DNA of 19,205 bases from UHGV virus genome UHGV-0342274, one strand, 5' to 3'. Numbering within the stretch: the first letter of the stretch is position 1; every line of letters begins with the position of its first letter. The notes below the pieces were generated by a model, which saw nothing but the letters and a program-made list of their open reading frames with translations, searched no databases and had not been told where the DNA came from. Below are positions 2,212 to 18,314 of the stretch, in pieces. The translations under genes and the position numbers were made by a program. The DNA comes from a virus.

Positions 2212-2316
2212 GGATATTTATCAGGATTTATCGGTTTCTGAGCCCTGGATATGTTTATCAGTTCCAGCCTGTTGCCTCAGGCTGCTAACAGGTCAATACA
2301 ATCATGAGGATTATTT

Positions 2317-2589
2317 ATGGACAATAACACCATTTCTCTACAGGAGTTGCTCGACAGCATTTCCAGGCTTCGGGAAGACGTGAATACCCTTACCGTCGCC
2401 TTCTCATATCTGGCATTCTCAATTCCAAGGGAACAGATGCAATCAACGCTGGCATCAATCCAGTTTGAATCATGCAATCCCAAATGGTCTCAGGAACAAC
2501 AAGACTCTTTCAGGCGGCTTGCTGTATTACTGGATGAAAAATATGCTGGTAAAATTACCATTTCGGCGGACTCTTCAGAGAACCCGTAA
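2317..2589 (+). CDS. Hypothetical 90-aa protein encoded antisense within the lysis cassette
   Basis: ATG at 2317 with GAGGA about 8 nt upstream; no predicted TM segment; protein-like composition. Its 3' end overlaps the 3' end of the convergent 114-aa gene by 35 nt. No homology recognised. Confidence 0.4.
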   Translation: MDNNTISLQELLDSISRLREDVNTLTVAFSYLAFSIPREQMQSTLASIQFESCNPKWSQEQQDSFRRLAVLLDEKYAGKITISADSSENP

Positions 2590-2899
2590 TTATTCCCGGT
2601 AGTTTTCCTCTGTAGGTTATCAACACATCCTGCGCCTCTAAAATTACGGGGCGCTTTTCCGGCGACTGCTCATCCCCTTCACATAACCCGGCAGCAACAT
2701 CCAGGAAGACCTGTCTGATGCTCCTTCTGGCTGCTGCCTCATAAAACTCCAGCGCGGCACCTTCAACACGGTCCAGCGAGATGTCCAGGTCAAAAATTTC
2801 ACCGTCAAAGCGTTTTTTGTCCCGTAACGCTAAAGTTACCGTAACTTTATTCTCAAAATTGCGGATCCCTTTCACAATCAGTTCATAGTTTTGCGTCAT
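2555..2899 (-). CDS. Hypothetical protein between holin and endolysin (tentatively YdfR-like, DUF1327)
   Basis: 114 aa, ATG at 2899 with GGGAGAG RBS, beginning 5 nt after the holin stop. Position matches my recollection of ydfR between essQ and rrrQ in Qin; the family assignment is from memory only. Confidence 0.55.
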   Translation of the reverse strand: MTQNYELIVKGIRNFENKVTVTLALRDKKRFDGEIFDLDISLDRVEGAALEFYEAAARRSIRQVFLDVAAGLCEGDEQSPEKRPVILEAQDVLITYRGKLPGIITGSLKSPPKW

Positions 2900-2903
2900 T
2901 GAA

Positions 2904-3119
2904 TTACTCTCCCCGTGCAGCCTTACGACGGTCCTCTCTGATTTTGAAATACAGGTTAGTCAGATATGTCAGCAGCCCAAACAGCAGACTCCCCAGCACG
3001 CCTATTGCCGCCCACTGAGACGGGGAAACCCTGTCCAGCAACTGCAGGAACCAGTAGCCCGTTCCCACCGCTGACGTGGTGTATGACACACCTGTTGTGA
3101 TTTTTTCCATCTGGTACAT
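2904..3119 (-). CDS. S: Class II pinholin (S21-like) with dual-start motif
   Basis: 71 aa from ATG at 3119: [71 protein letters not shown]. Two TM segments and the C-terminal [15 protein letters not shown] recalled from P21 S. Met1 and Met4 give the antiholin/holin dual start. The track ORF is extended upstream. Confidence 0.85.
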
Positions 3120-3269
3120 ACCCCGTCTCCCGTTATCCGGAAGCTGACAACAATAAAAAAAGCCACCAGTTAAGTACTGATGGCTCTGATAACTCATGCA
3201 GGCATCTCAGACGACCCACTGACACTACCGGTGAGTTTAACGATACCTTCCATTTGACTGGCTCACTTT

Positions 3270-5138
3270 TTATGATGATGCTGGTGCATTTATCTCCAGC
3301 ACCAGACTTTCTATCTCAACGCCATACGCTGCATTTTTGGTAATATCCGTCAGCGTCAGCGCATTCAGCCCCAGTGTCAGACTGTCTTTTATGACCAGGA
3401 ATGCCGGGCCAGCCACTCCATTCAGTTTCGGAGTAACCGTGGCACTGCCGGCGGTGAACACCAGCTCCAGCGTCTGCCAGTCGTTACTGTAATTCCCGAA
3501 CTCGCCCAACTTTGTGTTTCCTGCTTTCCTGTGATGCATCAGATTCAGTTTGCCGTCTGTGGTCTGGGTGAAGAACGACATCAGGAACGGGTTACCAGTC
3601 CCGGTCATCGCCACGACGTCAGGTAACGCTACATCGGTATACAGATAAATTCCCAGACCGAACTGGTTGTTGGTCAGTGCGCCTGACAGTCGAAACTTAC
3701 AGCTCAGTCTGCCACCCCGTGTCAGCAGGGAGACTGCGTCATCCACCGGATGCATCAGGGACCAAGTTTTATTGCTCTGCTTGGTGATCTTAAATACACC
3801 ACCCGACAACTGAATTCCGCCGTCCTTAATGGTCCAGCCCTGCGCAGCAGCCTCTCCGGCTGTCGGCAACAGGGAGATTGTGCGTACGGATGCATCTTCA
3901 GACGGCCCCGATGGCGTGTCGACGCCGGGCGAGGGTTTGATTTCCGGTGCCTTACCACTGATGAAGGCTGAGGTGCGCCCGGCTGCGTTCAGAATAGCGG
4001 TTGCCATACGATCCGGAATAATGCTCCTGCGCGCCCATGAACTGAAATGTGTCGGGCGGTTTGACGATACCCAATTACCATTACTACGGGATTGCGCGCC
4101 GTAATAACCTGCATCAGCAATATCCGGGTCTTCTGCCGGTAAGTTGGTGGGCGTGTTGTTGCCGTTACCGTCGGTCATGAACGGCACAAAGAAAACGTTG
4201 TCGCTCTCCCTGTTTTTGTATGCGCCGTAGACGGAGTCATACTGTGTGCCGTATGTGTTTTTCCAGTAATACGTCGTGTCGCCACAAATCCACGGTACAA
4301 CTGCAGCACTGCCGCCATGGCACTGCGCGTTAAATCCGGAAAGGTCAGTACGGAACTGCTTCAGCATGGCCGTGAACAGGTCCGGTTGCTGTGCGTAGGT
4401 GGCAGCGCTCATGTCAAATTCGCCCTGCATCCAGCACACCGCCAGCAACACATTTTTCGGGTTCTTCTGTAATGCCGCTTTGGTGCGTGCGATCAGGTCC
4501 TGATATAACGGTTTACCCACACCCCAGCGTGCCGAATCCTGGCTGGCCCCCGTGTCCGCACTGAATGTCCCCTCCGCGCCCTGGGTGAATGCCGAACCAC
4601 CACGACAGCATGGTACCAGCAGGATCCCCGCGTTATTCGGGATATACGGAAGCAGTTTTTTGGCAATATGTAAGCCCTGGCCGACACAGCCGTACTGCCC
4701 TTTGCTCAGGTCTGCCTTCGGATGATTCAGTGCGCTCATATCCTGAACATCATGCAGGCAGTGGTCTGCCGGAATGATGTCGTTAAATGCGCATGCTTTA
4801 CCACCGGGAGTCACTGTGTTGCGACGGGCCAGTTGCTTAATGCGTGGGTGGGGCGCATCGTAAGAATCCGGAAGCGGAAGCCCTTCACCGTAAGCCATGG
4901 CATTGGATTGCCCGGCCAGTACGATGACGTAGTACCACTCCGGCTCAGTTGCACCACTGACGACCACATCACCTTCTGCTGCAATCGCCTGCATCAGGGT
5001 ATAAGGGGTTATGGCCACCGGACTACCAAACGGCTGCCAGCCCTCTTTCAGTTTATGTGTCAGCTTTTCCGCAAGATCTGACGGCGACGCCGCCCTGACA
5101 ACATCATAGTGTTTAAATGCCATGGTTCTTTCCACCAT
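3270..5138 (-). CDS. nanS-p: NanS-p-like sialate O-acetylesterase (DUF1737 N-terminal domain plus SASA/SGNH-type esterase)
   Basis: 622-aa ORF. N-terminus MAFKHYDVVRAASPSDLAEKLTHKLKEGWQPFGSPV (DUF1737-like), then YVIVLAGQSNAMAYGEG (GQSN esterase motif). Sits just upstream of the holin, as in Stx phages. Start may be the ATG at 5123 (MAFKHY) rather than 5138. Confidence 0.75.
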   Translation of the reverse strand: MVERTMAFKHYDVVRAASPSDLAEKLTHKLKEGWQPFGSPVAITPYTLMQAIAAEGDVVVSGATEPEWYYVIVLAGQSNAMAYGEGLPLPDSYDAPHPRIKQLARRNTVTPGGKACAFNDIIPADHCLHDVQDMSALNHPKADLSKGQYGCVGQGLHIAKKLLPYIPNNAGILLVPCCRGGSAFTQGAEGTFSADTGASQDSARWGVGKPLYQDLIARTKAALQKNPKNVLLAVCWMQGEFDMSAATYAQQPDLFTAMLKQFRTDLSGFNAQCHGGSAAVVPWICGDTTYYWKNTYGTQYDSVYGAYKNRESDNVFFVPFMTDGNGNNTPTNLPAEDPDIADAGYYGAQSRSNGNWVSSNRPTHFSSWARRSIIPDRMATAILNAAGRTSAFISGKAPEIKPSPGVDTPSGPSEDASVRTISLLPTAGEAAAQGWTIKDGGIQLSGGVFKITKQSNKTWSLMHPVDDAVSLLTRGGRLSCKFRLSGALTNNQFGLGIYLYTDVALPDVVAMTGTGNPFLMSFFTQTTDGKLNLMHHRKAGNTKLGEFGNYSNDWQTLELVFTAGSATVTPKLNGVAGPAFLVIKDSLTLGLNALTLTDITKNAAYGVEIESLVLEINAPASS

Positions 5139-5739: not shown

Positions 5740-5775
5740 AAAATCAATATAAACAGCCCCTCCGGAGAGGGGCTG
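5740..5775 (-). terminator. Intrinsic terminator downstream of the tRNA cluster
   Basis: GC-rich 9-bp stem CAGCCCCTC/GAGGGGCTG with loop CGGA at 5754-5775. On the minus strand it is followed by TTTATATTGATTTTG. Confidence 0.5.
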
Positions 5776-6010
5776 GAGTGTGGCGCTATGTGCCATTGCA
5801 TGGTGCCGGGTGCCTCCCGGTGAATTCAGTACCAGCACCTGAATCCGCGATTATCCCATATACCTACTCGCTGATTGCCCCTCCGCACAGGGGGATTCAC
5901 CATGCCAGTTTCTTTTAACAAACTCCCCGCAAACCAGACAACAGTCAACCGCCTAAATTGTGAGACATTTAAAAAAAAGGCCCACAAAAGCGAGCCAGGG
6001 AAAATAAGTG

Positions 6011-6087
6011 TGGCGCGTTGTACTGGATTCGAACCAGTGACCGATTGCTTAGAAGGCAATTGCTCTGTCCGGCTGAGCTAACAACGC
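6011..6087 (-). tRNA. argO: tRNA-Arg (anticodon UCU)
   Basis: Cloverleaf built by hand: acceptor GCGTTGT/ACAACGC, D-arm GCTC...GAGC, anticodon stem ATTGC/GCAAT with loop CTTCTAA, T-arm ACTGG-TTCGAAT-CCAGT, CCA encoded. Third gene of an Ile-Arg-Arg cluster as in Stx phages. Confidence 0.8.
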
Positions 6088-6100
6088 ATGATGCAGATAA

Positions 6101-6177
6101 TGGACCGCCATCGGGGACTTGAACCCCGCGCAACCAGCTTCGAAGGCTGGCGCTCTTTCCTGATGAGCTAATGGCGG
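6101..6177 (-). tRNA. argN: tRNA-Arg (anticodon UCG as read from the loop)
   Basis: Acceptor CCGCCAT/ATGGCGG, anticodon stem CCAGC/GCTGG with loop CTTCGAA, T-arm CGGGG-TTCAAGT-CCCCG, CCA encoded. The symbol is by position in the cluster; the anticodon should be confirmed by software. Confidence 0.75.
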
Positions 6178-6184
6178 TATGTGA

Positions 6185-6260
6185 TGGTGGCCCTTGCTGG
6201 ATTTGAACCAGCGACCTGGCGATTATGAGTCGCTCGCTCTCACCACTGAGCTAAAGGGCC
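6185..6260 (-). tRNA. ileZ: tRNA-Ile2 (anticodon CAU, lysidine type; tRNA-Met alternative not excluded)
   Basis: Acceptor GGCCCTT/AAGGGCC, anticodon loop CTCATAA, T-arm GCTGG-TTCAAAT-CCAGC, CCA encoded. Very close to recalled E. coli ileX sequence. Confidence 0.8.
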
Positions 6261-6309: not shown

Positions 6310-7359
6310 TCAAACGATTAAATCCTGAACTTCCCTGACTGTCTGCTCAAAACGTCCGGTCTCCAGTTCAACGCCAATCGCACGACGCCCGAGCGCCAGT
6401 GCAGCTTTTACCGTTGAACCTGAGCCCATAAAAAAATCTGCAACCAGGTCTCCCGGACGACTGCTTGCGCTGATTATCTGCTGCAGCATTTCTGCCGGTT
6501 TTTCGCACGGATGTTTCCCGGGATAGAACTGCACCGGTTTATGCGTCCACACATCGGTATACGGCACCTGCACCGTCACGCCAAAATACCGCCGCAGATG
6601 TTTATATTCACTCAGCAGCTCCGCATACTGCCGGTTCAGTGAGGTATACGTATCCACCAGATGGTGGTGGAGCTTTTCCAGTTCACCACGCCGATGCTTC
6701 TCTTCTGCCACCCGGGCAAACAGCGCCTGTAATTTCAGATAATCGCTTTCATTCGGTAGCTGCCACTGACTGGCACTGAACCAGTGCGACACCATGTTTT
6801 TCTTTCCTGTGGCATCTGCAATCTGTTTTGCCGTTATCCCCAGGGCCGCGCGCGCATCACGAAAGTAAGAAATCAGCGGGGCCATCACATGCTGTTTCAG
6901 TGCACTGCCCTTCGCCGCATACCCGGCATCTTTCGGACGATACGGCCCCTGATAATGTTCCGCGAACAGAATGCGCTCTGTGGCGGGGAAATACGCCCGC
7001 AGGCTTTCCTTGTTGCATCCGTTCCAGCGTCCGGACGGCTTCGCCCAGATAATATGGTTCAGCACACTGAAGCGTTCACGCATCATGATTTCGATATCAG
7101 ATGCCAGGCGATGACCACAGAACAGGTAAAGACTTCCGGCAGGTTTCAGCACCCGCCAGAACTGCGCCAGACACTGGTCCAGCCACTTCAGGTAATCATC
7201 GTCGCCCTTCCACTGGTTATCCCAGCCCTCAGGCTTCACTTTAAAGTACGGCGGGTCCGTGACTATCAGGTCAACAGAATTTTCGGGTAACGACCGGATA
7301 AATTCCAGGCAGTCGGCGTTGATTAACTCACAACTGGATATTTTTACAGTATTAAGCAT
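6310..7359 (-). CDS. Orphan DNA N6-adenine methyltransferase (beta-class, DPPY motif)
   Basis: 349 aa. Motif IV DPPY near the N-terminus (DLIVTDPPYF) and SAM-binding motif I near the C-terminus (DFFMGSGST), the order of beta-class amino-MTases. No adjacent restriction gene in the window. Confidence 0.8.
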   Translation of the reverse strand: MLNTVKISSCELINADCLEFIRSLPENSVDLIVTDPPYFKVKPEGWDNQWKGDDDYLKWLDQCLAQFWRVLKPAGSLYLFCGHRLASDIEIMMRERFSVLNHIIWAKPSGRWNGCNKESLRAYFPATERILFAEHYQGPYRPKDAGYAAKGSALKQHVMAPLISYFRDARAALGITAKQIADATGKKNMVSHWFSASQWQLPNESDYLKLQALFARVAEEKHRRGELEKLHHHLVDTYTSLNRQYAELLSEYKHLRRYFGVTVQVPYTDVWTHKPVQFYPGKHPCEKPAEMLQQIISASSRPGDLVADFFMGSGSTVKAALALGRRAIGVELETGRFEQTVREVQDLIV

Positions 7360-7825: not shown

Positions 7826-7849
7826 ATAAAAAACCCGCCAGGCGGCGGG
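7826..7849 (-). terminator. Candidate tR' terminator of the short pR' transcript
   Basis: Stem CCCGCC/GGCGGG with loop AGGC at 7834-7849; on the minus strand followed by TTTTTTAT. About 45-65 nt downstream of the predicted pR' start. Confidence 0.55.
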
Positions 7850-7931: not shown

Positions 7932-8753
7932 CTATCGCGTTACCCTCTTTAACTGCCGCTCCGCCCATGCCTCTTCAATGTCAAACCGAACCACCAACGT
8001 ATCGTAAAAGCGTTTCACTGATTTTTTCCACGTATCAAGCGTGATAGCACTCGTCACTTTGCGTATGGCATTAAATGCCTCCGTTGATGGTAGTCTTTCA
8101 CAGCCACGACCACCACAACGCTGGCAGTCTCTGATAACAGGCATACCACGTTTTACCGACTCTTCACGATGAATGGCGACACCACGCCCACGGCAATCCT
8201 TACAGGCGGTGGAAACCTCACCCTTTCCGCCACACTCCGGACAGGCAACTTTTACCACCTCCCTGACTTTTTTCCATTCTTCCCAGTAAGACGGATACAC
8301 ACCTTTCGTACACTTTGCCCATACCGGCGGCTTACCATCCGGATACTGGACCTTGTTTGTAAAAACCTCGCTTTCAATAAATTTTTTTCCGTGACAGCAG
8401 GAGCACTGTTTTTTGCTCGCCGCGCTACGGGCATAATCTTCAAACGCATACGAAGCCATAATACGCATCACTGCCGGTTTTATTTCTGCCGGGAGTTTTC
8501 TTAACGCCGCCACGCGATCACACCGACTGAGTGCATATTCTGTCAGCAATTCTGTTGCCCGCTCTCTGTCATTCATACTAATGCCCATTTTACCAAGGAA
8601 CGCAGAAAACCCCATCTCAGCCCGATTCTGTGTCATGCCCTGCGCGGCCATCACATCAGTGATACTCAGCGCATCTTTCGACGTTGAGGCCGATGCATCA
8701 GTCAGGCCGGGGGATTTTGGGGAGTAGTATTTCGGTAAATCTTCCAGTTTCAT
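7932..8753 (-). CDS. Q: Late-gene antiterminator Q (lambda Q family, enlarged zinc-binding region)
   Basis: 273 aa. Shares with recalled lambda Q the blocks SPKSP, TDVMAAQGM, EDYARSAA and the C-terminal YDTLVV...RVTR. Multiple Cys pairs (CSCCHG, CPECGG, CKDCRG, CQRCGG) form an expanded zinc-finger segment. Start overlaps the rusA stop (ATGA). Confidence 0.85.
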   Translation of the reverse strand: MKLEDLPKYYSPKSPGLTDASASTSKDALSITDVMAAQGMTQNRAEMGFSAFLGKMGISMNDRERATELLTEYALSRCDRVAALRKLPAEIKPAVMRIMASYAFEDYARSAASKKQCSCCHGKKFIESEVFTNKVQYPDGKPPVWAKCTKGVYPSYWEEWKKVREVVKVACPECGGKGEVSTACKDCRGRGVAIHREESVKRGMPVIRDCQRCGGRGCERLPSTEAFNAIRKVTSAITLDTWKKSVKRFYDTLVVRFDIEEAWAERQLKRVTR

Positions 8754-9124
8754 TTTTTGACCTGCCCTTCAAGCATTATGGGGTAAATCTTCACCCCCAG
8801 ACGTCCACCAGATACTGGCTGACCACGAACGATATTGATTTCATCAAACTGCTCATCGTCCATTAACACTCCCGCATGCGTCAGCGCATCCAGCGGTGCT
8901 TTCAGGATATTGTCCAGGTCGCGACGACGCTTATCCGGTAGCTCTGCAATCACCTTTATCGCCAGCCTTCCGGACAGGCTTAATTTCAGCCGCTGCTGGC
9001 GAACAATAAGCGCCACAGCCCGGCGATAACGCTTTCCCTCCTCCGAGATAAAATATGTGCTGCCACGGCGTCGCCAGTAAGTGTTCACCGTCGGCGGGTA
9101 AGGTAAAACCAAATCTATGAGCAT
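8750..9124 (-). CDS. rusA: RusA Holliday-junction resolvase
   Basis: 124 aa; AGAGGTG RBS; sequence pattern LPYPPTVNTYWRRRG...DLDNILKAPLDALTHAGVLMDDEQ typical of RusA; stop overlaps the Q start. Confidence 0.8.
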   Translation of the reverse strand: MLIDLVLPYPPTVNTYWRRRGSTYFISEEGKRYRRAVALIVRQQRLKLSLSGRLAIKVIAELPDKRRRDLDNILKAPLDALTHAGVLMDDEQFDEINIVRGQPVSGGRLGVKIYPIMLEGQVKK

Positions 9125-9136
9125 CAGTCACCTCTT

Positions 9137-10183
9137 TTACCCAAGCACGCCAGTTGCAAAGGCGTGATCAAGAAAACGAAAAATTAAATCAACCTGAGAA
9201 CCATGCTTTTCTTCGAACGCCAGAGGATCCGCATGAAGCTCGTTGTGATGCTCCCGACACAGCGGTAGCGTGAAAATATCGTGAGATTTTGTCCCCATTC
9301 CGCCCTGACCATGACCAATCAGGTGATGGGGATCGTCGGCTGGCTTACCACAACACGCACACGGCTGTGTCTTCACCCAGCGTGTGTATTTCTCGTTAAC
9401 CCAGCGGCGACGTTTAGGTCGTTTCATGAAAGATTCCGGAGACTCAGGATCAACGGCAATGCTGACCACCGTCTCTTCCTGTGGCGGGTTTTGCTGGTGG
9501 GCGTGAGGCAGCGGCGCAAGATTTTTTGTGCGCTGCTTCAGTATGCTGGTGGCGGTCTGCTCTCCCGGTACGATGTCGCTTTCACGGTACATTGAGCGGA
9601 TTTTTTCCGCACGCAACCCCAGCGAACGACGTAATACCGCTTCCGGTAGCGCGTCCGCCACCTGATTGCGGACCGCCCACCAGGATAATTCAGCCAGCGA
9701 TAATTCCCGTTCCTGCGAGCCATTCATTGCATGGCGTATGACGTCAATCATCCATGCAGACAGGTTTTGGTGAGCAAGTTGCCCGAGTGATTCGGAGGTC
9801 TGGTCGCGCAGCTGGTTGTCGCAGTGCCAGCACAACACCATTGCGCCGGTACCATAACGGTGAATGACGGTTTCACTGTGGTGATAATCGCCGTGTGGCC
9901 ACTGGCAGGATTTAACATGGCGCAGTAACCAGTCAGACAATGCGCCAGCGCCACCAGCAGCACGAATCACTCGTTCGTCGCTGAAAAATGGCAGTAATGA
10001 TTTATCCTCCGCCAGCGGCTGGCGAACGGCAGGAACGACCCCGGACGACAGATTACGCATGCTTTTCGGTTCCGGCTCCACCAGTACCCGGGTATTGTGG
10101 AATACCGGCATGGATTCACGGCCCGGCTTAACGATCACCAGCCCGAGTTCCGGTACCAGAACAGGTCGAAGTAATACCCGCAC
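9137..10183 (-). CDS. DUF968 family protein (YdfU-like), Cys/His-rich C-terminus
   Basis: 348 aa from a GTG start at 10183 with GGAGGT RBS inside the end of the upstream gene. C-terminal CACCGKPADDPHHLIGHGQ...LCREHHNELH is a metal-binding-like motif. Position upstream of Q as I recall for ydfU in Qin. Internal ATG starts are possible. Confidence 0.55.
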   Translation of the reverse strand: MRVLLRPVLVPELGLVIVKPGRESMPVFHNTRVLVEPEPKSMRNLSSGVVPAVRQPLAEDKSLLPFFSDERVIRAAGGAGALSDWLLRHVKSCQWPHGDYHHSETVIHRYGTGAMVLCWHCDNQLRDQTSESLGQLAHQNLSAWMIDVIRHAMNGSQERELSLAELSWWAVRNQVADALPEAVLRRSLGLRAEKIRSMYRESDIVPGEQTATSILKQRTKNLAPLPHAHQQNPPQEETVVSIAVDPESPESFMKRPKRRRWVNEKYTRWVKTQPCACCGKPADDPHHLIGHGQGGMGTKSHDIFTLPLCREHHNELHADPLAFEEKHGSQVDLIFRFLDHAFATGVLG

Positions 10184-10184
10184 G

Positions 10185-10457
10185 TTACCTCCAGATGCGT
10201 TGCTGGAATGTGCGGGACGGACGCGGTGGCCGTTCGGAATAAGGGAGTCTGACGTAGATTATCCAGTGACGATAATCGAGGGTGAGGGCTTTCCTAAACT
10301 CATATCCACGTCTGCGGTAGTTATGAATCAGCCATTCGGCCTGTTCTTCAGTACAGGGATCGTGCTGATACCAGTCATATTTGAATGCGTGAGAACGCCA
10401 CCCGTGCCTGCTGGCAAAGGCAGAATCAGAATTGCGAAATTTGAAATTATGCGCCAT
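10185..10457 (-). CDS. Hypothetical 90-aa protein (possibly Rem-like)
   Basis: ATG at 10457 (MAHNFKFRNSD...) with GGAG 6 nt upstream; the track ORF begins at an upstream TTG. Stop abuts the YdfU-like start. The Rem assignment is by position and size only. Confidence 0.4.
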   Translation of the reverse strand: MAHNFKFRNSDSAFASRHGWRSHAFKYDWYQHDPCTEEQAEWLIHNYRRRGYEFRKALTLDYRHWIIYVRLPYSERPPRPSRTFQQRIWR

Positions 10458-10516
10458 TGTCATCTCCAATGGCGCTGCAGGTTGCCAGTTGTTCAGGCTG
10501 GCTCACGTATTATAAC

Positions 10517-10690
10517 TTATTCCCGAACTACCTTGAAACCGAGTCTTTCCAAGTATTCAATGAATGCCTCAACAGATAACACTACATGATCATCAGGAAT
10601 TAACGCTGTGTAGGTAATACCCCCATTCTCAACGCGCACAGCATAGAGGCCATCTTCACTAAAAATTTCACGTAATTCTTCGATTTTCAT
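10517..10690 (-). CDS. Hypothetical 57-aa protein
   Basis: ATG at 10690 with GGAAGGA RBS about 9 nt upstream: MKIEELREIFSEDGLYAVRVENGGITYTALIPDDHVVLSVEAFIEYLERLGFKVVRE. The track ORF is extended upstream without RBS. Confidence 0.45.
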   Translation of the reverse strand: MKIEELREIFSEDGLYAVRVENGGITYTALIPDDHVVLSVEAFIEYLERLGFKVVRE

Positions 10691-10773
10691 CAACAGAATC
10701 CTTCCAGATAAATAGCACTCCCCCTGTTCGGGGTCCATCCCTCTTCTCCCTGCGCGCTACTTAAGTATTTTTG

Positions 10774-10803
10774 ATTCTATTCTGGCACCGTCCAAAACTT
10801 CAA
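10774..10803 (-). promoter_or_regulatory. Candidate sigma70 promoter just downstream of the cassette terminator
   Basis: Minus strand TTGAAG-18 nt-TAGAAT, placed to drive the 57-aa/90-aa/YdfU-like/rusA/Q genes. Confidence 0.35.
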
Positions 10804-10810
10804 ACACGTT

Positions 10811-10843
10811 GAAAATAAAAACAAAAAACCCGCCGAAGCGGGT
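10811..10843 (-). terminator. Intrinsic terminator at the 3' end of the two-gene cassette
   Basis: Hairpin ACCCGC-CGAA-GCGGGT at 10828-10843; on the minus strand followed by TTTTTTGTTTTTATTTTC. The stop codon of the HTH-peptidase gene is immediately upstream. Confidence 0.7.
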
Positions 10844-10847
10844 ATAC

Positions 10848-11951
10848 TCAAACAATCTGGAAAATATTTCTTGGATTTGTAATAGGTCTGTTGATGGAGA
10901 ACAACTCACGAATTAAATCTTGGCTCAAGCCAGTTTTCATAAGAATTCTTAGCCAGGTTGCATCATCCAGCATTTCAATCGCCTCGGCCAGCATGCCGGG
11001 TTCTTCAGGGCGCAAAAGTTCATCACCAGGTTCAACTCTCGTATACCCTCTGGAATTAAGATGCATATAGCCAGTTCTTGCCTGTTCCTGGGTCAATAAG
11101 CCTAATGCGCTGGCTCGATAAATACACATTTTAAGGCTGATTTTCCATCTAAGTTTAAATTCAACCAGAGCATTCCAGTCGAATTGCTTACCTCGTATTC
11201 GTGGAAATTCTTTAATGAAAGATAACCTGGGAACTAATAAGGCGCTCGAAAAGTGATCGGCTTGTGATTCCGTAAGTTTATCACCTGTCGTTATGCCCTC
11301 ATGCATTACTAAATGCCCTAATTCATGACCTAAATCAGAGCGAAATCTACATATGCTTTTTTTAACATTGTTCCTGATGATAACAGGCCTGTTATTGTGA
11401 ACAGTAAAAGCATCAACACGATCATCGACTCCCGTAACATGCGCAACGATTACCCCTAAACTCTCCGCCAATTTAACCATTGATGATATAGGGCCAAGAC
11501 CTAAATTCCAGGCACGGCGACAATCTTCTGCCACTCGCTCAATATCATTCGGAGTAAGTAATTCAGCCCCTGGGTGCTCCGGTATGTTAACGTCAGGAAA
11601 TTCGATTTCACCTTCAACAGCAGAAATTATAATATTAAGAATCTCAGCCCTGGCCAATACACTATTAGTCAGCGTTTGAGTCCTGGACTTCTTACTCCGA
11701 AAATGGCAGACATCACTTTCCAGAGCGTATTTTCGTTCAGTAAAAAGAAAACTGGACTTAATCATAAGCGCTGAAGATATTAACTCAAGACATTGCTCCG
11801 ATGGCCTGCACCCCTTCTCCAGTTTGCTAACGAATTGCTTTGTCTTGCCAATTTTTTCGGCTAACTCTTCACAAGAAAGCCCAACAGCCATTCTCGCTAG
11901 TTTGAGCTTATCACCCCGATACTCAGTGAAGTTATTCACCTGATGTTCCAT
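10848..11951 (-). CDS. HTH-XRE DNA-binding domain fused to ImmA/IrrE-family (M78, COG2856) zinc metallopeptidase
   Basis: 367 aa from ATG at 11951 (the track begins one codon earlier at GTG). N-terminal HTH (LKLARMAVGLSCEELAEKIGKTKQFVSKLEKG); HEXXH zinc site at DLGHELGHLVMHEG; about 150 aa C-terminal of the peptidase core. Overlaps the upstream gene by about 20 nt. Lower GC than flanks by eye. Confidence 0.75.
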   Translation of the reverse strand: MEHQVNNFTEYRGDKLKLARMAVGLSCEELAEKIGKTKQFVSKLEKGCRPSEQCLELISSALMIKSSFLFTERKYALESDVCHFRSKKSRTQTLTNSVLARAEILNIIISAVEGEIEFPDVNIPEHPGAELLTPNDIERVAEDCRRAWNLGLGPISSMVKLAESLGVIVAHVTGVDDRVDAFTVHNNRPVIIRNNVKKSICRFRSDLGHELGHLVMHEGITTGDKLTESQADHFSSALLVPRLSFIKEFPRIRGKQFDWNALVEFKLRWKISLKMCIYRASALGLLTQEQARTGYMHLNSRGYTRVEPGDELLRPEEPGMLAEAIEMLDDATWLRILMKTGLSQDLIRELFSINRPITNPRNIFQIV

Positions 11952-12582
11952 CACTGCTCACATCCAAATCTTTATCCTTCGTACGCCGACGAAGAGGCAC
12001 CTTATTAATCTCCGCTTCGTCAGGGAGTGTGTTATAATCAAGAGGCATAAGCGGCATCGATGCTGTAGATTGATGAGAAACTATACTAATCTGAGCACCA
12101 TAAGTATTAAATCCAACAAGAGCTACCTCCCAACGAGGCAGTGTGGACTCTAATTCACCATCGCCCTCTTCGGATAAAAAAGGCTCAGCTATGACTCGCC
12201 ATGTAATATCTTGCTCAGCCTCAACATCACCAAACAATGAGAGCTGCTCATACTCTACTTTATTTCGACGCAGACGATGTTTCTTTTTGGGGTTATTAAT
12301 GCAATCTTTGGTAAATTGTAGCGGAACTTTATTTAAAGCAACTACATAGTCCAACCCCTTGGAAATCATCTCAAGGCCAGGAATTGCATCTTCATTTTGA
12401 ATAAGATGATTTCTGACCCAATCATAAGCCCTTACACCTTCAGACCAGTTGCTGTCTAATGCGTGCTTATGATAGTACAGCTGCTCAAGTACGTTAGCGA
12501 TCTCCGCCAACAAGTGGCGAACATAGTTTTCAGCAAGATAAGGTTGAAATTCCCAACAAGGAGCTAACTGATTTTCATTCAT
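11932..12582 (-). CDS. Hypothetical 216-aa protein, first gene of the cassette
   Basis: ATG at 12582, no strong SD but AT-rich leader. Acidic C-terminal tail. No domain recognised. Co-oriented with and overlapping the HTH-peptidase gene. Confidence 0.55.
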   Translation of the reverse strand: MNENQLAPCWEFQPYLAENYVRHLLAEIANVLEQLYYHKHALDSNWSEGVRAYDWVRNHLIQNEDAIPGLEMISKGLDYVVALNKVPLQFTKDCINNPKKKHRLRRNKVEYEQLSLFGDVEAEQDITWRVIAEPFLSEEGDGELESTLPRWEVALVGFNTYGAQISIVSHQSTASMPLMPLDYNTLPDEAEINKVPLRRRTKDKDLDVSSDGTSGE

Positions 12583-12611
12583 TTCAAGTTTCGCTTTTTT
12601 TAGAATTCGTA

Positions 12612-12646
12612 AACCACATATTTTCGCATTTTTCTATTTTTGTCAA
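12612..12646 (-). promoter_or_regulatory. Candidate cassette promoter
   Basis: Perfect -35 TTGACA (plus-strand TGTCAA at 12641-12646), 17-nt spacer, weak -10 AAATAT; about 30 nt upstream of the 216-aa start. Confidence 0.3.
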
Positions 12647-12654
12647 CCAGACTA

Positions 12655-12678
12655 ATGCAAAAACCCGCCGAAGCGGGT
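12655..12678 (-). terminator. Intrinsic terminator downstream of hokD; second copy of the cassette-flanking hairpin
   Basis: Same core AAAAACCCGCCGAAGCGGGT as at 10821-10843; on the minus strand followed by TTTTTGCAT. Confidence 0.6.
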
Positions 12679-12747
12679 TAAGTGCGGGTGCGTTGAGGAT
12701 GCCTGGCACATCAGAGGTGGCGGGAGATTACTCCCCCGCCGGGTCTC

Positions 12748-12903
12748 TTACTCCTCAGGTTCGTAAGCTGTGAAGACAGCGACCTCCGTCTGGCCGGTTC
12801 GGATTCGTACCTCGCAGAGGTCTTTCCTCGTTACCAGTGCCGTCACAATGACGGTTAAACAGATGACGATCAGGGCGATTAGCATCGCCTTTTGCTGCTT
12901 CAT
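12748..12903 (-). CDS. hokD: Hok/Gef-family type I toxin (HokD/RelF-like)
   Basis: 51 aa from ATG at 12903: MKQQKAMLIALIVICLTVIVTALVTRKDLCEVRIRTGQTEVAVFTAYEPEE, matching HokD as I recall it. The track ORF extends in frame 19 codons upstream (MLYTRRLASYVPKGKEKQA). Confidence 0.85.
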   Translation of the reverse strand: MKQQKAMLIALIVICLTVIVTALVTRKDLCEVRIRTGQTEVAVFTAYEPEE

Positions 12904-13114
12904 AGCCTGCTTCTCCTTGCCTTTCGGCACGTAAGAGGCTAACCTACGTGTGTAGAGCATAGATATGGCCTCAGATTAATGTTAAGCGTCTTGCCGGACG
13001 CGTAATGTTAACTGGGGCTTTTCTCTATCTGCCTTTTGGTGTTCATGCCTGAGACAGATAGCCTCAAGCACCCGCTGCAATTCTACTTAACTCTCCTTTT
13101 CCCGCAAACCGTTT

Positions 13115-13198
13115 TTATCCCCAGTGGCAAATCGAATACACCACCAGCGCCACCGCCATCGCAATTCCTACCGTTGTTAATGCTTCAGGCCAGGTCAT
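13115..13198 (-). CDS. Putative 27-aa hydrophobic micro-protein, translationally coupled
   Basis: ATG at 13198 overlaps the TGA of the 114-aa gene (ATGA). [27 protein letters not shown] has one TM-like segment. Not in the ORF track. Confidence 0.25.
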
Positions 13199-16150: not shown

Positions 16151-17116
16151 TTATCCCCTGAAACCAGGCGGAATTTCTGTATCCGGTTCAGAAATATGAT
16201 TCACACAACGCTGTACAGGTGAACGTCCCAAGCGGATGACCAGTTCGTCCCATTTTTCGCGGAGTTTTGACGGGCTCATGATGTTTTTTACCCAGAATGG
16301 ATCTCGCTGTACCCGACCAAACATTTCGCAAATTTGTCTGTGGCTTCTGCCATCCAGCATCCGCATTGTGCGCACGTCATTGGCCCAGGCTGTCCAGTTA
16401 GGCTCTTTTGGTCGCATGATCTCTCCATCGTCGCTGGCAGCCTGTTCGTAAAGGTTCACGATCCGCCCCCAAATCCACTGCGCACACGCCAAATCCTCCC
16501 TGCTACCCCACTGGCGTTTTTTCGCACTAAACACAACCGCGTCGGGGTTCCGGATTAAAAAATCCTGTTCAGCGGTCTGCGGGTCCGGTTGCGAAGCTTC
16601 CGGACGAAAAGTGTTTTTATTCTCTGTAGTAATCTCTGTTGTATTCTCTGTAAGATCATCAGGCCATTTTGACCCGATGACATTGGGTCGTTTTGAACCA
16701 ATGGAGCGTTTCATTTTGACCTCTTCCATCGTGTCATTTTGACCTGATGGAGCGGCGCATTTTGAACCGATGGATTCGTTCAATTTGCCACCATCTAAAA
16801 GCTCGCTCCCATAGTTGATCGTGTAGAAATTGGTCATATCGCGCTTTGATTTATTGAGCTTTTCACAACGCAAAAGCCCCAGCGTTTTCAGACTTGCAAA
16901 CGCGCGCTTTAACGTTGACTCTGACCAGAATGGGAACTGTTCCAGCCATTGTTCCGTTGTGTTGTAAATCCAGCGAACACCATCACATTCCATGCCGGAA
17001 TTGGTATCTCTCAACCAGTAATGCAACTGCTGCAACACAATGGCTTCATTTAAGCCAATCTTCATCGCAAGCTGTGTGTTTATAACCAGTGGGCGTTCAG
17101 CAAAAAGAAGGCTCAT
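16151..17116 (-). CDS. Replication initiator (lambda O-like / replisome organiser) containing the origin iterons
   Basis: N-terminal domain (LVINTQLAMKIGLNEAIVLQQLHYWL...WIYNTTEQWLEQFPFWSESTLKRAFASLKTLGLL) resembles phage replication-initiator winged-helix domains. The central coding region is built from the DNA iterons (SIGSK repeats). Start taken as ATG at 17116; the track start is an upstream TTG. Confidence 0.65.
   Translation of the reverse strand: MSLLFAERPLVINTQLAMKIGLNEAIVLQQLHYWLRDTNSGMECDGVRWIYNTTEQWLEQFPFWSESTLKRAFASLKTLGLLRCEKLNKSKRDMTNFYTINYGSELLDGGKLNESIGSKCAAPSGQNDTMEEVKMKRSIGSKRPNVIGSKWPDDLTENTTEITTENKNTFRPEASQPDPQTAEQDFLIRNPDAVVFSAKKRQWGSREDLACAQWIWGRIVNLYEQAASDDGEIMRPKEPNWTAWANDVRTMRMLDGRSHRQICEMFGRVQRDPFWVKNIMSPSKLREKWDELVIRLGRSPVQRCVNHISEPDTEIPPGFRG
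16600..16795. repeat. Phage replication origin: about six iterons plus an adjacent AT-rich tract with 11-bp-phased TCTCTGT repeats
   Basis: Direct repeats of CATTTTGACC-type cores at about 16666, 16690, 16712, 16736, 16759 and 16782 (spacing 23-24 bp), followed in the O direction by an AT-rich stretch (16600-16660) containing three TCTCTGT copies. Confidence 0.6.
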
Positions 17117-17618
17117 AATTCCATCCAGCTTTTTGTTGGTATTGCTGTCGATACGCAAGTTTGAAAGCAATTGCTTTTTCTATAAGTTCGTCAGTTTCAC
17201 GATCCACTACGGCAGGATCAGCAAAAAGCAGTCCGGACTCCACCACATCGCCATATTCTTTGTTTAACCCGGCGATCATGTACGTGATGCTTTTTCCGTC
17301 ACTAATTTCACGATACAACCTGAAATCATTAATCCGGATAGCCTCCATAATTGCAGGCACTAGCGCCGTGAACTTTTCACGCTTATCCCTGGTGTCGATA
17401 GCCTTCCAGCGTTCGAATATCTTCACTCGATTAACGCCAAGCGCTCGCTGATCAACCGCGCCACCTTCATCTGTGACACGCTGAACATCGATGTTCGGGC
17501 GCTCTTTCAAAGCCCAGAATGCTTCAGTGATTAATATCGTCGCCTGCTCCTGTGTCATTCCTGGTCGACATATCCAGGCATCCAGAGCCTCACGAGCCTG
17601 TTCAGGAGTGATTTTCAT
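17097..17618 (-). CDS. Hypothetical 173-aa protein downstream of cro
   Basis: ATG at 17618 overlapping the end of the cro-like gene; occupies the cII-position of lambdoid early-right operons but shows no recognisable CII similarity. Confidence 0.45.
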   Translation of the reverse strand: MKITPEQAREALDAWICRPGMTQEQATILITEAFWALKERPNIDVQRVTDEGGAVDQRALGVNRVKIFERWKAIDTRDKREKFTALVPAIMEAIRINDFRLYREISDGKSITYMIAGLNKEYGDVVESGLLFADPAVVDRETDELIEKAIAFKLAYRQQYQQKAGWNYEPSFC

Positions 17619-17829: not shown

Positions 17830-17906
17830 CGCACCTCCAATATTGAGTTTTCTCAATGCTAATCACTCAAGGAATCTCAAGTCAAGGGTTATTAAGATAT
17901 CTAAAT
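17830..17906. promoter_or_regulatory. Divergent immunity-region promoters and operators
   Basis: Minus-strand cro promoter TTGACT-17/18 nt-TAGCAT. Palindrome TTGAGTTTTCTCAA at 17843-17856. Direct repeats CTCAAG at 17866-17871 and 17876-17881. The repressor start has no SD, suggesting leaderless or near-leaderless translation. Confidence 0.45.
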
Positions 17907-18314
17907 ATGAACGAGAAAACTTTAGGTCAACGCATTAGAGAAAGACGTAAGCAGGTAGGCTTAAGTCAAAACGGTTTAAGCAAAGCTGCTGGCGTATCTG
18001 GCTCATCAATTTCATTATGGGAAAGTGACCATACAGCCCCGCGTGGGCAAAATTTGCATCGCCTCGCCGAGGTATTGCAATGTTCACCAACCTGGATACT
18101 GTTTGGCGACGAGGACAAAACACCAGCTCCCCCTGTTTCACTCGATAGTGCCTTAGACTTATCGGAAGATGAGTTAGAGATGCTGCGTTTGTATCGCGCA
18201 CTTCCTAAATCAGAGCAACAAGCACAACTCAGCGAACTCCGCGCCCGCGTTGAGAATTTTAATCGCCTGTTCACCGAGCTATTAGAGGCTCGCAAACGCA
18301 ACAAGCATCAATAA
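17907..18314 (+). CDS. dicA: DicA-like HTH-XRE repressor (CI analogue lacking a peptidase domain)
   Basis: 135 aa from ATG at 17907: MNEKTLGQRIRERRKQVGLSQNGLSKAAGVSGSSISLWESDHTAPRGQNLHRLAEVLQCSPTWILFGDEDK.... The block LQCSPTWILFGDEDK and the length match my recollection of Qin DicA. The track ORF begins at an upstream in-frame ATG. Confidence 0.8.
   Translation: MNEKTLGQRIRERRKQVGLSQNGLSKAAGVSGSSISLWESDHTAPRGQNLHRLAEVLQCSPTWILFGDEDKTPAPPVSLDSALDLSEDELEMLRLYRALPKSEQQAQLSELRARVENFNRLFTELLEARKRNKHQ

What the first reader, a model, noticed from the sequence alone, without database searches (positions are those of the whole stretch)
10821..12680. Duplicated terminator hairpin (AAAAACCCGCCGAAGCGGGT) at both ends of the cassette
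The same 20-bp core forms the terminator after the HTH-peptidase gene (10821-10843) and the terminator after hokD (12658-12680). A direct repeat of a functional terminator flanking about 1.8 kb of low-GC DNA is what homologous or illegitimate recombination at a terminator would leave behind. It marks the cassette as an exchangeable module and predicts that related prophages have one terminator copy with nothing in between.
Basis: seen in the sequence. Interest (0 to 1): 0.5.

Follow-up and report, generated by a model that had tools for sequence, protein, structure and literature searches.

The report
Defence cassette bracketed by duplicated hokD terminator
A 1.8-kb anti-phage toxin-antitoxin cassette in an E. 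coli lambda-like prophage sits between two identical copies of a 20-base terminator hairpin; related prophages have one hairpin and no cassette, or a different cassette between two hairpins, so the terminator also marks a swap point for defence genes.

Summary
AAAAACCCGCCGAAGCGGGT occurs exactly twice (10824-10843 and 12659-12678). Read on the minus strand, each copy is a C(UUCG)G hairpin followed by a T-run. One follows rmrA and the other follows hokD.

The 1,815 bp between them is a RosmerTA defence operon (rmrT and rmrA) with GC 0.415. Closely related prophages carry a single hairpin whose left flank matches copy 1 and whose right flank matches copy 2.

In 171 hokD-junction loci, about 26% have a hairpin pair. 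The pairs enclose one of five unrelated cargos:
- two Rosmer types
- an antitoxin plus Doc toxin pair
- a lipoprotein
- an HTH plus M78 peptidase pair

The same cargo is joined to several different distal flanks exactly at the hairpin, and hairpin variants travel with the cargo-proximal half.

The best explanation is that the hokD terminator also serves as a 20-nt homology where promoter-bearing morons are lost, gained and exchanged. The topology matches the PeSL cassettes of T4-type phages. The recombination step is inferred, not shown.

Three caveats apply:
- The hairpin is a widespread generic terminator.
- 20 nt is below the published minimal pairing length for Redβ and RecA.
- Some cargos at or near this site lack the pair.

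I rate it a new variant of a known kind, of moderate interest.

The parts
10824..10843 (-). Hairpin copy 1 (HP1), the predicted intrinsic terminator of the rmrT-rmrA operon. Stem 10829-10833 and 10838-10842, loop 10834-10837, A-run 10823-10828 (a T-run on the minus strand).
   Evidence: Exact repeat. Called by the terminator scan and folds at -10.9 kcal/mol. Its left flank equals the left flank of the single hairpin in empty-site loci.
10848..11954 (-). rmrA, the RosmerTA antitoxin, with an N-terminal XRE-type HTH and an M78/ImmA-IrrE Zn-peptidase domain (368 aa).
   Evidence: Pfam Peptidase_M78 6e-11 and HTH_3 5e-7. PADLOC RmrA 6e-105.
11932..12582 (-). rmrT, the RosmerTA toxin of unknown fold (216 aa). 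It overlaps the start of rmrA by 23 nt.
   Evidence: PADLOC RmrT 4.6e-25, no Pfam hit. ORF coordinates.
12641..12646 (-). Putative -35 hexamer (TTGACA) of the cassette's own promoter, 12 nt downstream of the HP2 T-run.
   Evidence: Read directly from the sequence. The motif 'ttgtcaacca' is conserved in the Tritos-type cassette and in the 80%-identical KL53 cassette, where homology ends just upstream of it. No good -10 hexamer was found by the scan, so this is a prediction.
12659..12678 (-). Hairpin copy 2 (HP2), the predicted intrinsic terminator of the hokD mRNA.
   Evidence: Exact repeat. Called by the terminator scan and folds at -15.1 kcal/mol. In the non-cargo chromosomal hokD rows listed (E. 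coli complete genomes), homology to the window begins at 12658-12661.
12748..12960 (-). mok/hokD reading frame (type I toxin).
   Evidence: Pfam HOK_GEF 2.9e-23. Annotated as hokD in RefSeq relatives.
12898..13073 (-). Rfam match to the 'sok' family (sok/hok 5' regulatory region).
   Evidence: Rfam RF01794, 117 bits, E = 1.6e-26.
10517..10738 (-). Short Rem-like ORF (73 aa). It forms the distal flank of the cargo slot and is present unchanged in the empty-site loci.
   Evidence: PHROG 340, 1.8e-18. The same module sits next to the single hairpin in L012 and L019-L021.
10185..10469 (-). Conserved 94-aa nin-region ORF, used as the anchor for the locus survey.
   Evidence: PHROG 1212, 5e-37. 597 related stretches in viral contigs.
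9137..10183 (-). ydfU (DUF968, HNH-nuclease-like), the conserved downstream neighbour.
   Evidence: Pfam DUF968 1.4e-76. PHROG 96 HNH endonuclease.

Best explanation
The 20-nt repeat is the Rho-independent terminator of the hokD type I toxin mRNA. It is present twice because a self-contained cassette lies between the two copies. The cassette has a putative promoter, rmrT, rmrA and a terminator, and encodes a RosmerTA anti-phage toxin-antitoxin system.

The position just downstream of hokD, in the nin region of Escherichia/Shigella lambdoid prophages, is a cargo slot. About 70-75% of loci have one hairpin. About 25-30% have hairpin-cargo-hairpin, holding one of at least five unrelated toxin-antitoxin or defence-like cassettes, all oriented the same way as hokD.

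The hairpin does two jobs.

(i) Transcription (inferred). In the lysogen it ends the hokD transcript and then the cargo transcript. This insulates each unit from the downstream nin genes. During lytic growth, antiterminated pR transcription would read through it.

(ii) Recombination (inferred from comparative anatomy). The hairpin is a portable 20-nt identity. Cassettes can loop out between the direct repeats and leave one hairpin. They can re-enter, or be re-joined to a different downstream genome segment, by a crossover inside the hairpin. The second exchange would take place in the long hokD homology. Phage Rad52-type or host recombination would carry out these steps.

Shown here: the repeat, the single-hairpin empty site, several cargos, several distal partners, and breakpoints that fall inside the hairpin. 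Not shown: terminator activity, the recombination pathway, and how each cargo first came to sit between two hairpins.
For: - Exact repeat that is not due to chance, with terminator anatomy.
- Cargo identified as RosmerTA. The system is described as a defence TA with a Zn-peptidase antitoxin in bioRxiv 10.1101/2022.05.11.491447.
- Empty site. Window 8000-10843 and 12658-13120 align to L012 with a 21-nt overlap on one hairpin. The flank sequences match.
- Survey anchored on orf94. Every interval carrying an extra cassette between the hairpin and the orf94 spacer has two hairpins, with intervals of 681/751, 933, 1367, 1434, 1948 and 2209 bp.
- Cargo identities: Doc/Fic plus a small ORF, a lipoprotein, HTH plus M78 peptidase, and a second Rosmer type.
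- Independent samples anchored on hokD. Hairpin pairs were found in 21 of 94 viral loci and 24 of 77 metagenome or genome loci.
- The same distal flanks occur next to single hairpins and next to HP1 of filled loci, in at least 5 backgrounds. The Doc cargo is joined at HP1 to at least 6 different distal sequences and Rosmer to at least 3.
- Hairpin variants follow the cargo-proximal half. The Rosmer-2 HP1 loop CGAG is found in 6 of 6 loci, although a single-hairpin locus with the same distal flank has the canonical loop. The lipoprotein HP2 left arm AACGC is found in 17 of 17 loci. A crossover inside the hairpin would give this pattern.
- In E. coli complete genomes, 231 of 237 Rosmer carriers have the rmrT-HP2-hokD junction. 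In the non-cargo chromosomal hokD rows listed, homology begins at the first base of the hairpin.
- The same single-versus-double motif topology, and circular excision products, were demonstrated for PeSL cassettes in T4-type phages (PMC2839356).
- Rad52-like recombinases drive lambdoid mosaicism on short or diverged homology (PMC3945230).
Against: - 20 nt is below the reported minimal efficient pairing segment, which is 23-27 bp for Redβ and 31-34 bp for RecA (PMC3945230). Hairpin-by-hairpin exchange would therefore be rare.
- No locus among about 170 has three hairpins or two cargos in tandem. No circle or tandem junction was found in viral contigs.
- An 80%-identical Rosmer cassette in strain KL53 sits elsewhere in a nin region without the hairpin pair. 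It has a different terminator loop, CCCGC-ATATA-GCGGG, so the cassette can move by other routes.
- A HicAB cargo at this site (L046) has only a degenerate hairpin.
- Modules such as rem are bounded by the hairpin on one side only.
- The hairpin is a generic terminator found in many unrelated phages, so part of the sequence identity could reflect selection for the C(UUCG)G hairpin.
- The comparative data cannot tell insertion from deletion, and cannot show how each cargo first came to lie between two hairpins.
Confidence: 0.68

Rival explanations
1. Classical moron accretion without any role for the hairpin in recombination. Each cassette arrived by random illegitimate recombination carrying its own terminator. 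Selection kept only junctions that leave terminators intact. The terminators look alike because C(UUCG)G on a CCCGC stem is a favoured design, possibly homogenised later by gene conversion from the neighbouring hokD terminator.
For: - The 18-mer core occurs in at least 100 unrelated viral contexts with GC from 0.30 to 0.67, so it is a favoured sequence.
- The KL53 Rosmer homologue has its own terminator with the same stem and a different loop.
- In three cargo classes the HP1 loop differs from HP2 by 1-2 nt.
- rem-type modules and the HicAB cargo are not bracketed by hairpins.
Against: - Five unrelated cargos would each need a terminator identical or nearly identical to hokD's over 14-20 nt, including the loop. 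Both junctions of each would also have to abut it to the nucleotide.
- Empty sites retain exactly one copy.
- The same cargo is fused to many distal flanks precisely at HP1.
- Hairpin variants split into cargo-proximal and cargo-distal halves.
Confidence: 0.17
2. The hairpin is the recognition site of a structure-specific or site-specific enzyme that inserts circular cassettes. This would be an integron-like or HUH-like cassette system. Candidate enzymes would be the neighbouring RusA resolvase, the YdfU HNH-like nuclease, or a host enzyme.
For: - The topology (one site when empty, site-cargo-site when filled, all cargos in one orientation) is what site-specific integration of a circle gives.
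- rusA (8750-9124) and ydfU (9137-10183) are conserved neighbours.
- 20 nt is short for homologous recombination.
Against: - No recombinase, integrase or HUH gene was identified among the ORFs examined in or beside the slot.
- The hairpin is a 6-bp stem with a 4-nt loop. It is unlike attC sites or IS200/IS605 ends (established knowledge).
- No cassette arrays were seen.
- Filled sites persist with distal contexts that lack ydfU and rusA next to the slot.
- The same cargo exists elsewhere without the site.
Confidence: 0.08
3. The repeat is a target-site duplication made by a transposable element that carries the cassette.
For: A direct repeat flanks an insert of different GC content.
Against: - There is no transposase. 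The only ORFs longer than 70 aa in the insert are rmrT and rmrA.
- There are no terminal inverted repeats at the insert ends.
- 20 nt is far longer than usual target-site duplications (established knowledge).
- Five unrelated inserts share the same 'duplication'.
Confidence: 0.02

Closest known systems
PeSL (promoter-early stem-loop) regulatory cassettes of T4-type phages (Arbiol et al. 2010, PMC2839356; Comeau et al. 2014, PMC4122927)
   Same: A short conserved regulatory motif containing a terminator stem-loop brackets non-essential variable ORFs. The related genome has a single motif where the ORF is missing. Exchange between flanking motifs is proposed to delete, insert and shuffle modules, and was shown there to produce circles.
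   Different: Here the repeated unit is only the 20-nt terminator, and the promoter belongs to each cargo. In the 19-kb window there is one slot, not dozens of copies spread through hyperplastic regions. The hosts are temperate lambdoid prophages and the cargos are TA or defence operons. No circles have been demonstrated.
Morons of lambdoid phages (Hendrix and colleagues' moron-accretion model, as summarised in PMC2839356)
   Same: An autonomous unit (putative promoter, genes, terminator) of deviant GC content is inserted between genes that are adjacent in related phages. It is presumably expressed from the prophage and benefits the lysogen.
   Different: In the moron model the regulatory sequences are not the vehicle of mobility and no conserved flanking sequence is expected. 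Here both junctions of five different morons fall within one conserved 20-nt hairpin.
Prophage and satellite defence hotspots (P2/P4 hotspots; Rousset et al. 2022, PMC9122126, title and abstract only)
   Same: A fixed position between conserved phage genes holds interchangeable anti-phage systems.
   Different: A different phage family and position. Here the slot is delimited by a duplicated terminator. I did not check how the boundaries of the P2/P4 hotspots are built.
Integron gene cassettes (attC-bounded)
   Same: Each cassette ends in a hairpin-forming site. The empty and filled topology is the same, and orientation is uniform.
   Different: No integrase was found. The site is a 16-nt perfect terminator hairpin, not a 57-141-bp attC. 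The cargos carry their own promoter, and no arrays were seen.

Membership tests
Rho-independent (intrinsic) terminator | GC-rich stem-loop immediately followed by a U-run on the transcribed strand | tested here: met
   ACCCGC-UUCG-GCGGGU followed by 5-6 U on the minus strand for both copies.
Rho-independent (intrinsic) terminator | Located just downstream of a stop codon or at the 3' end of a transcription unit, in the same orientation | tested here: met
   HP1 starts 4 nt after the rmrA stop codon. HP2 lies about 68 nt after the hokD stop codon. All genes are on the minus strand.
Rho-independent (intrinsic) terminator | Measured termination of transcription | not testable with these tools
   Needs Term-seq, 3' RACE or reporter assays.
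RosmerTA defence system | Adjacent rmrT (toxin) and rmrA (antitoxin) genes matching the family profiles | tested here: met
   PADLOC RmrA 6.2e-105 and RmrT 4.6e-25. The genes overlap by 23 nt.
RosmerTA defence system | Antitoxin carries a Zn-peptidase domain (with HTH) | tested here: met
   Pfam Peptidase_M78 and HTH_3. Description in bioRxiv 10.1101/2022.05.11.491447.
RosmerTA defence system | Protects against phage infection | not testable with these tools
   Requires plaque assays.
Moron (lambdoid phages) | Insert lies between genes that are adjacent in related phages | tested here: met
   Empty-site loci L012 and L019-L021, and K-12 Qin-type loci.
Moron (lambdoid phages) | Own promoter and own terminator | tested here: inconclusive
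   The terminator is met (HP1). For the promoter, a conserved TTGACA lies at 12641-12646, but no convincing -10 hexamer was found.
Moron (lambdoid phages) | Nucleotide composition different from the surrounding genome | tested here: met
   GC 0.415 against 0.51 and 0.48 in the flanks.
PeSL-type cassette shuffling | Conserved motif on both sides of the variable ORF(s), and a single motif at the empty site | tested here: met
PeSL-type cassette shuffling | The repeated motif is a composite of a strong promoter and a stem-loop | tested here: not met
   Identity is confined to the 20-nt terminator. The promoter-side sequences are specific to each cargo.
PeSL-type cassette shuffling | Many motif copies dispersed in hyperplastic regions of one genome | tested here: not met
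   Only two copies in the 19-kb window, allowing up to 3 mismatches. At most two per hokD locus.
PeSL-type cassette shuffling | Circular excision products (mini-circles) | not testable with these tools
   Scans of viral contigs for the predicted circle or tandem junctions found nothing. This is weak negative evidence only.
Integron gene cassette | attC-type recombination site and an adjacent integron integrase | tested here: not met
   The site is a 16-nt perfect hairpin. No recombinase was found among the ORFs examined next to the slot. Not every ORF in the window was scanned.
Transposon with target-site duplication | Transposase gene and terminal inverted repeats | tested here: not met
   The insert encodes only rmrT and rmrA, and no inverted repeats lie at its ends.
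hok/sok type I toxin-antitoxin locus | Hok-family toxin ORF with a sok/mok regulatory region | tested here: met
   Pfam HOK_GEF 2.9e-23. Rfam sok, 117 bits.

The most novel reading that the evidence does not exclude
The A5-CCCGCCGAAGCGGG-T hairpin may not be only a local feature of hokD. It could be a widespread 'portable terminator-linker' through which tailed phages of many lineages exchange modules. The exact 18-mer occurs in at least 100 unrelated viral contigs. In 11 of 12 related pairs of such contigs, similarity is kept on one side and lost on the other exactly at the hairpin. About a third share an extended flank, GGCAWWAAA. If this holds, terminator hairpins would be general recombination linkers, extending the PeSL principle well beyond T4-type phages. 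They would then be a predictable address for finding new defence and TA cargo.
Probability: 0.2. Interest if true: 0.7.

Novelty: new variant of a known kind. Interest (0 to 1): 0.5.

Why it matters
It gives a simple sequence rule for locating interchangeable defence and TA cargo in the very common hokD-bearing lambdoid prophages of E. coli. hokD-type loci occur in 4,705 of 5,426 complete genomes, with a median of two per genome. The rule is to look between two copies of the hokD terminator.

It also offers a testable mechanism for how morons move in temperate phages. The original moron model left this step undefined, and only T4-type lytic phages have an experimentally supported 'regulatory cassette as linker' mechanism.

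The slot already holds one experimentally validated type of defence system (RosmerTA) and several uncharacterised candidates: a 130-aa lipoprotein, an HTH plus M78 peptidase module, and a 142-aa partner of HicAB. These become candidates for prophage-encoded defence or exclusion functions.

Tried and rejected
- **Chance repeat.** Rejected: 0 of 200 shuffles gave two matches.
- **Transposon target-site duplication.** Rejected: no transposase and no terminal inverted repeats.
- **Integron or attC-like site.** Rejected on site structure and the absence of a recombinase among the ORFs examined.
- **Hairpin intrinsic to the Rosmer cassette.** Rejected: the KL53 homologue sits elsewhere and has a different terminator loop.
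- **Hairpin intrinsic to all hok loci.** Rejected: 933W hokW and plasmid hok loci lack it, and homology to the window starts at or after its right edge.
- **Circle or tandem junctions of the Rosmer and Doc cargos.** Searched in viral contigs, none found.
- **Arrays of three hairpins.** None in about 170 loci. More distant 'second' hairpins 3.6-4.4 kb away turned out to be other terminators with 2 mismatches.
- **Prior description of this hotspot.** Literature searches (hokD with hotspot; hokD with ydfU; moron, terminator and lambdoid) found none in the held library. Subscription journals are not covered.
- **Other plasmid contexts for the cargo.** The plasmid search found only prophage-like copies with the same hairpin pair.
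- **Species range.** The genome-wide scan showed the hokD-hairpin junction only in Escherichia and Shigella, plus a few MAGs.
- **Counts.** The locus counts are therefore samples, not censuses.
Full report
**Observation**

The 20-mer AAAAACCCGCCGAAGCGGGT occurs exactly twice in the 19,205-base window, at 10824-10843 and 12659-12678. No further match appears even with three mismatches allowed, and none of 200 dinucleotide-preserving shuffles gave two matches. Similarity ends at the edges of the 20 nt.

All genes in this region are on the minus strand. There each copy reads ACCCGC-UUCG-GCGGGU followed by 5-6 U. This is a six-pair stem closed on a C(UUCG)G tetraloop. The consensus scan calls both as terminators, and they fold at -10.9 and -15.1 kcal/mol.

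**What lies around it**

The window is part of a lambdoid prophage, read leftward on the minus strand:
- a cI-like repressor (17856-18314, plus strand)
- cII-like (17097-17618)
- O-like replication protein (16151-17170)
- hokD with its sok region (12748-13073)
- hairpin 2
- a two-gene operon (11932-12582 and 10848-11954)
- hairpin 1
- a short Rem-like ORF (10517-10738)
- a conserved 94-aa ORF (10185-10469)
- ydfU, DUF968/HNH-like (9137-10183)
- rusA (8750-9124)
- Q (7932-8753)

The two-gene operon is a RosmerTA system. PADLOC gives RmrA 6e-105 and RmrT 5e-25, and the antitoxin has HTH and M78 peptidase domains. RosmerTA was reported as an anti-phage TA system with a Zn-peptidase antitoxin (bioRxiv 10.1101/2022.05.11.491447).

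The insert has GC 0.415, against 0.51 and 0.48 in the flanks. A TTGACA at 12641-12646, 12 nt after the hairpin-2 T-run, is conserved in diverged homologues and is a candidate -35 hexamer. No convincing -10 hexamer was found.

**Test of the prediction**

Megablast against 5,426 complete E. coli genomes and against phage records showed many loci in which ydfU and hokD are much closer together. I fetched ten of them.

K-12 Qin-type loci have one hairpin. Its left flank is the window's copy-1 left flank, and its right flank is the window's copy-2 right flank. The closest relatives (L012, L019-L021) carry the same Rem-like ORF. They align to window 8000-10843 at 98% and to 12658-13120 at 96%. The two alignments overlap by 21 nt on the single hairpin.

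So the window equals an empty site plus 1,835 bp, which is the cassette and one hairpin.

**Other cargo**

I anchored on the 94-aa ORF in 80 viral contigs plus the ten fetched loci. The intervals to hokD fell into two groups:
- Intervals of 83-86 bp (37 loci) and 371-466 bp (16 loci) have one hairpin.
- Intervals carrying an extra cassette beside the hairpin (681/751, 933, 1367, 1434, 1948 and 2209 bp) all have two hairpins.

The enclosed cargos are unrelated to one another:
- the window's Rosmer type
- a second Rosmer type, as in phage Tritos (RmrA 5e-102, RmrT 7e-10)
- a small ORF plus a Doc/Fic toxin
- a 130-aa lipoprotein
- an HTH protein plus an M78 peptidase

All are oriented the same way as hokD.

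Two independent samples anchored on the hokD side gave similar proportions. Hairpin pairs were found in 21 of 94 viral loci and 24 of 77 metagenome or genome loci, and there were no three-hairpin arrays.

Among one genome per species of 185,579 species, the hokD-hairpin junction appears only in Escherichia and Shigella, plus a few MAGs. In complete E. coli genomes the Rosmer cargo is in 237, the Doc cargo in 125 and the lipoprotein cargo in 255.

**Breakpoints fall in the hairpin**

Four lines of evidence agree.
- The same distal sequences are found next to a single hairpin and next to hairpin 1 of filled loci, in at least five backgrounds.
- The Doc cargo is joined at hairpin 1 to at least six different downstream contexts. 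Some are nin regions without ydfU or the 94-aa ORF. Rosmer is joined to at least three.
- In 231 of 237 Rosmer-bearing genomes the rmrT-hairpin-hokD junction is intact. In the non-cargo chromosomal hokD rows listed (the search found 10,582 places in 4,705 genomes in all), homology to the window begins at 12658-12661, the first base of hairpin 2.
- Hairpin variants split by halves. The Tritos-type cargo always has the loop variant CGAG in hairpin 1 (6 of 6), although a single-hairpin locus with the same distal flank has the canonical loop. The lipoprotein cargo always has AACGC in the cargo-proximal arm of hairpin 2 (17 of 17).

A crossover inside the hairpin would produce this last pattern, whether by integration of a circle or by unequal exchange.

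**Is it just a ubiquitous terminator?**

Partly. Only 23 of 123 occurrences are next to hokD. The hairpin is therefore a generic, favoured terminator sequence.

That weakens any argument from sequence identity alone. It does not explain three things:
- five unrelated cargos are each bracketed to the nucleotide by it
- the empty site keeps exactly one copy
- many distal partners join at the same point

Among the non-hok occurrences there were 12 related pairs of contigs. In 11 of them, similarity is kept on one side only, with the alignment abutting the hairpin. This suggests that the association of this hairpin with mosaic junctions may be more general. There was no control with other terminators, so this is only a lead.

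**Mechanism**

The best-supported reading is that the hokD terminator has two roles.

As a terminator, it insulates hokD, then the cargo, from the downstream nin genes in the lysogen. This is inferred from its anatomy. That antiterminated early transcription reads through such terminators during lytic growth is established lambda biology, not something tested here.

As a 20-nt direct repeat, it allows loop-out deletion, re-insertion of the excised unit, and re-joining of 'hokD-hairpin-cargo-hairpin' to other downstream segments. The second crossover would fall in the roughly 420-bp hokD homology.

This is the topology described and experimentally supported for PeSL cassettes in T4-type phages. 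There, a single PeSL in one phage corresponds to PeSL-ORF-PeSL in its relative, and circles were detected by inverse PCR (PMC2839356). Phage Rad52-like recombinases drive lambdoid mosaicism on short and diverged homology (PMC3945230).

**Limits of this reading**
- 20 nt is below the quoted minimal efficient pairing segments, 23-27 bp for Redβ and 31-34 bp for RecA.
- No arrays or circle junctions were found.
- An 80%-identical Rosmer cassette in strain KL53 sits in another nin-region position with a different terminator loop and no hairpin pair.
- A HicAB-containing cargo at this site has only a degenerate hairpin.
- rem-type modules are bounded by the hairpin on one side only.
- How each cargo first came to lie between two hairpins is not explained by any data here. 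One possibility is microhomology between the hokD hairpin and a cargo's own CCCGC-stem terminator, as seen in KL53. That is speculation.

**Comparison with known systems and novelty**

Each cassette fits the definition of a moron. The difference is that the moron model assigns no role in mobility to the regulatory sequences (PMC2839356 discussion).

The arrangement works like PeSL-mediated shuffling but fails two of its defining features. The repeat lacks the promoter, and it is not dispersed in many copies.

It is not an integron cassette and not a transposon.

I found no description of a hokD-adjacent, terminator-bracketed cargo slot in the searchable literature. That library omits most subscription journals.

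I rate it a new variant of a known kind. It is a solid and easily testable comparative finding of moderate interest (0.5).

Noticed in passing
L091-L210 (viral contigs containing AAACCCGCCGAAGCGGGT outside hok loci): About a third of 100 non-hok occurrences share an extended left flank, consensus GGCAWWAAA, directly before the hairpin. This is often preceded by CTCC and CAT. On the other strand that reads as terminator, TTTWWTGCC, Shine-Dalgarno GGAG, then ATG. The contigs range from GC 0.30 to 0.67. It may be a conserved terminator-plus-RBS cassette in many phage lineages. Contig L207 has two copies 6.6 kb apart.
   Followed up: partly
L091-L210, pairs such as L131/L156, L165/L198, L109/L138, L115/L142/L201: Of 12 related contig pairs sharing this hairpin outside hok loci, 11 keep similarity on only one side, with the alignment abutting the hairpin. 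There was no control with other terminators.
   Followed up: partly
L211 (E. coli KL53, NZ_CP030919.1) 2300-4480: An 80%-identical RosmerTA cassette sits in a different nin-region position, between a hypothetical gene and a DNA methyltransferase fragment next to dinI. Its terminator is CCCGC-ATATA-GCGGG. A further variant hairpin, CCCGCCGTAGCGGG, lies about 150 bp beyond it.
   Followed up: partly
L046 (IMGVR_UViG_2802429219_000011), interval between the 94-aa ORF and hokD: A 1.38-kb cargo encodes HicA, HicB and an unannotated 142-aa protein at the same slot. Only a degenerate hairpin (GCCCACATCGGCGGGC) is present at the distal end, and there is no recognisable hokD-side hairpin.
   Followed up: partly
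L037 and L056, about 419 bp upstream of the 94-aa ORF: The hairpin is truncated in its right arm (CCCGCCGAAGCG|CTGAGGGGTCCCC...) and no hokD follows. This may be an insertion or rearrangement breakpoint inside the hairpin.
   Followed up: no
L316 (phage 933W, AF125520.1) 1440-1580; L317 (plasmid hok locus): The hokW locus of 933W lacks the hairpin. Homology to the window starts at the right edge of the hairpin, and hokW runs straight into the next gene (L0136). Plasmid hok homology starts a further 8 nt or more inward.
   Followed up: partly
window 5745-6260 (minus strand): There is an Rfam STnc100 sRNA match (132 bits) and three tRNA genes (6014-6087, 6104-6177, 6188-6260). They lie downstream of Q and a DNA methyltransferase gene (6310-7359), as in many Stx-type and lambdoid late regions.
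   Followed up: no
window 7834-7849: A third terminator-like hairpin has a related stem (AAAAAACCCGCCAGGCGGCGGGG on the plus strand). It lies just downstream of the Q antiterminator gene and may be the late-operon terminator. It is not a copy of the 20-mer.
   Followed up: no
H81, NZ_CP069459.1 (E. coli FDAARGOS_1249) 1256741-1259621: The same Rosmer cassette is interrupted by an IS5-family transposase in one genome.
   Followed up: no
L042 / L188 cargo; L003 / L022 / L218 cargo: There are two uncharacterised cargos in the slot. One is an HTH protein (119 aa) plus an M78 peptidase (158 aa) plus a Cys-rich 60-aa ORF, which looks like a split RmrA/CapH-CapP-like regulator. The other is a 130-aa lipoprotein (lipobox LGGC) with no Pfam or PADLOC match, present in 255 complete E. 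coli genomes.
   Followed up: partly
Doc cargo, hokD-proximal ~125-140 bp (L067 versus L049, L215-L217): The Doc cassette exists in two versions. They share 701 bp from the hairpin-1 side but have unrelated promoter-side segments, and both versions end exactly at hairpin 2.
   Followed up: partly
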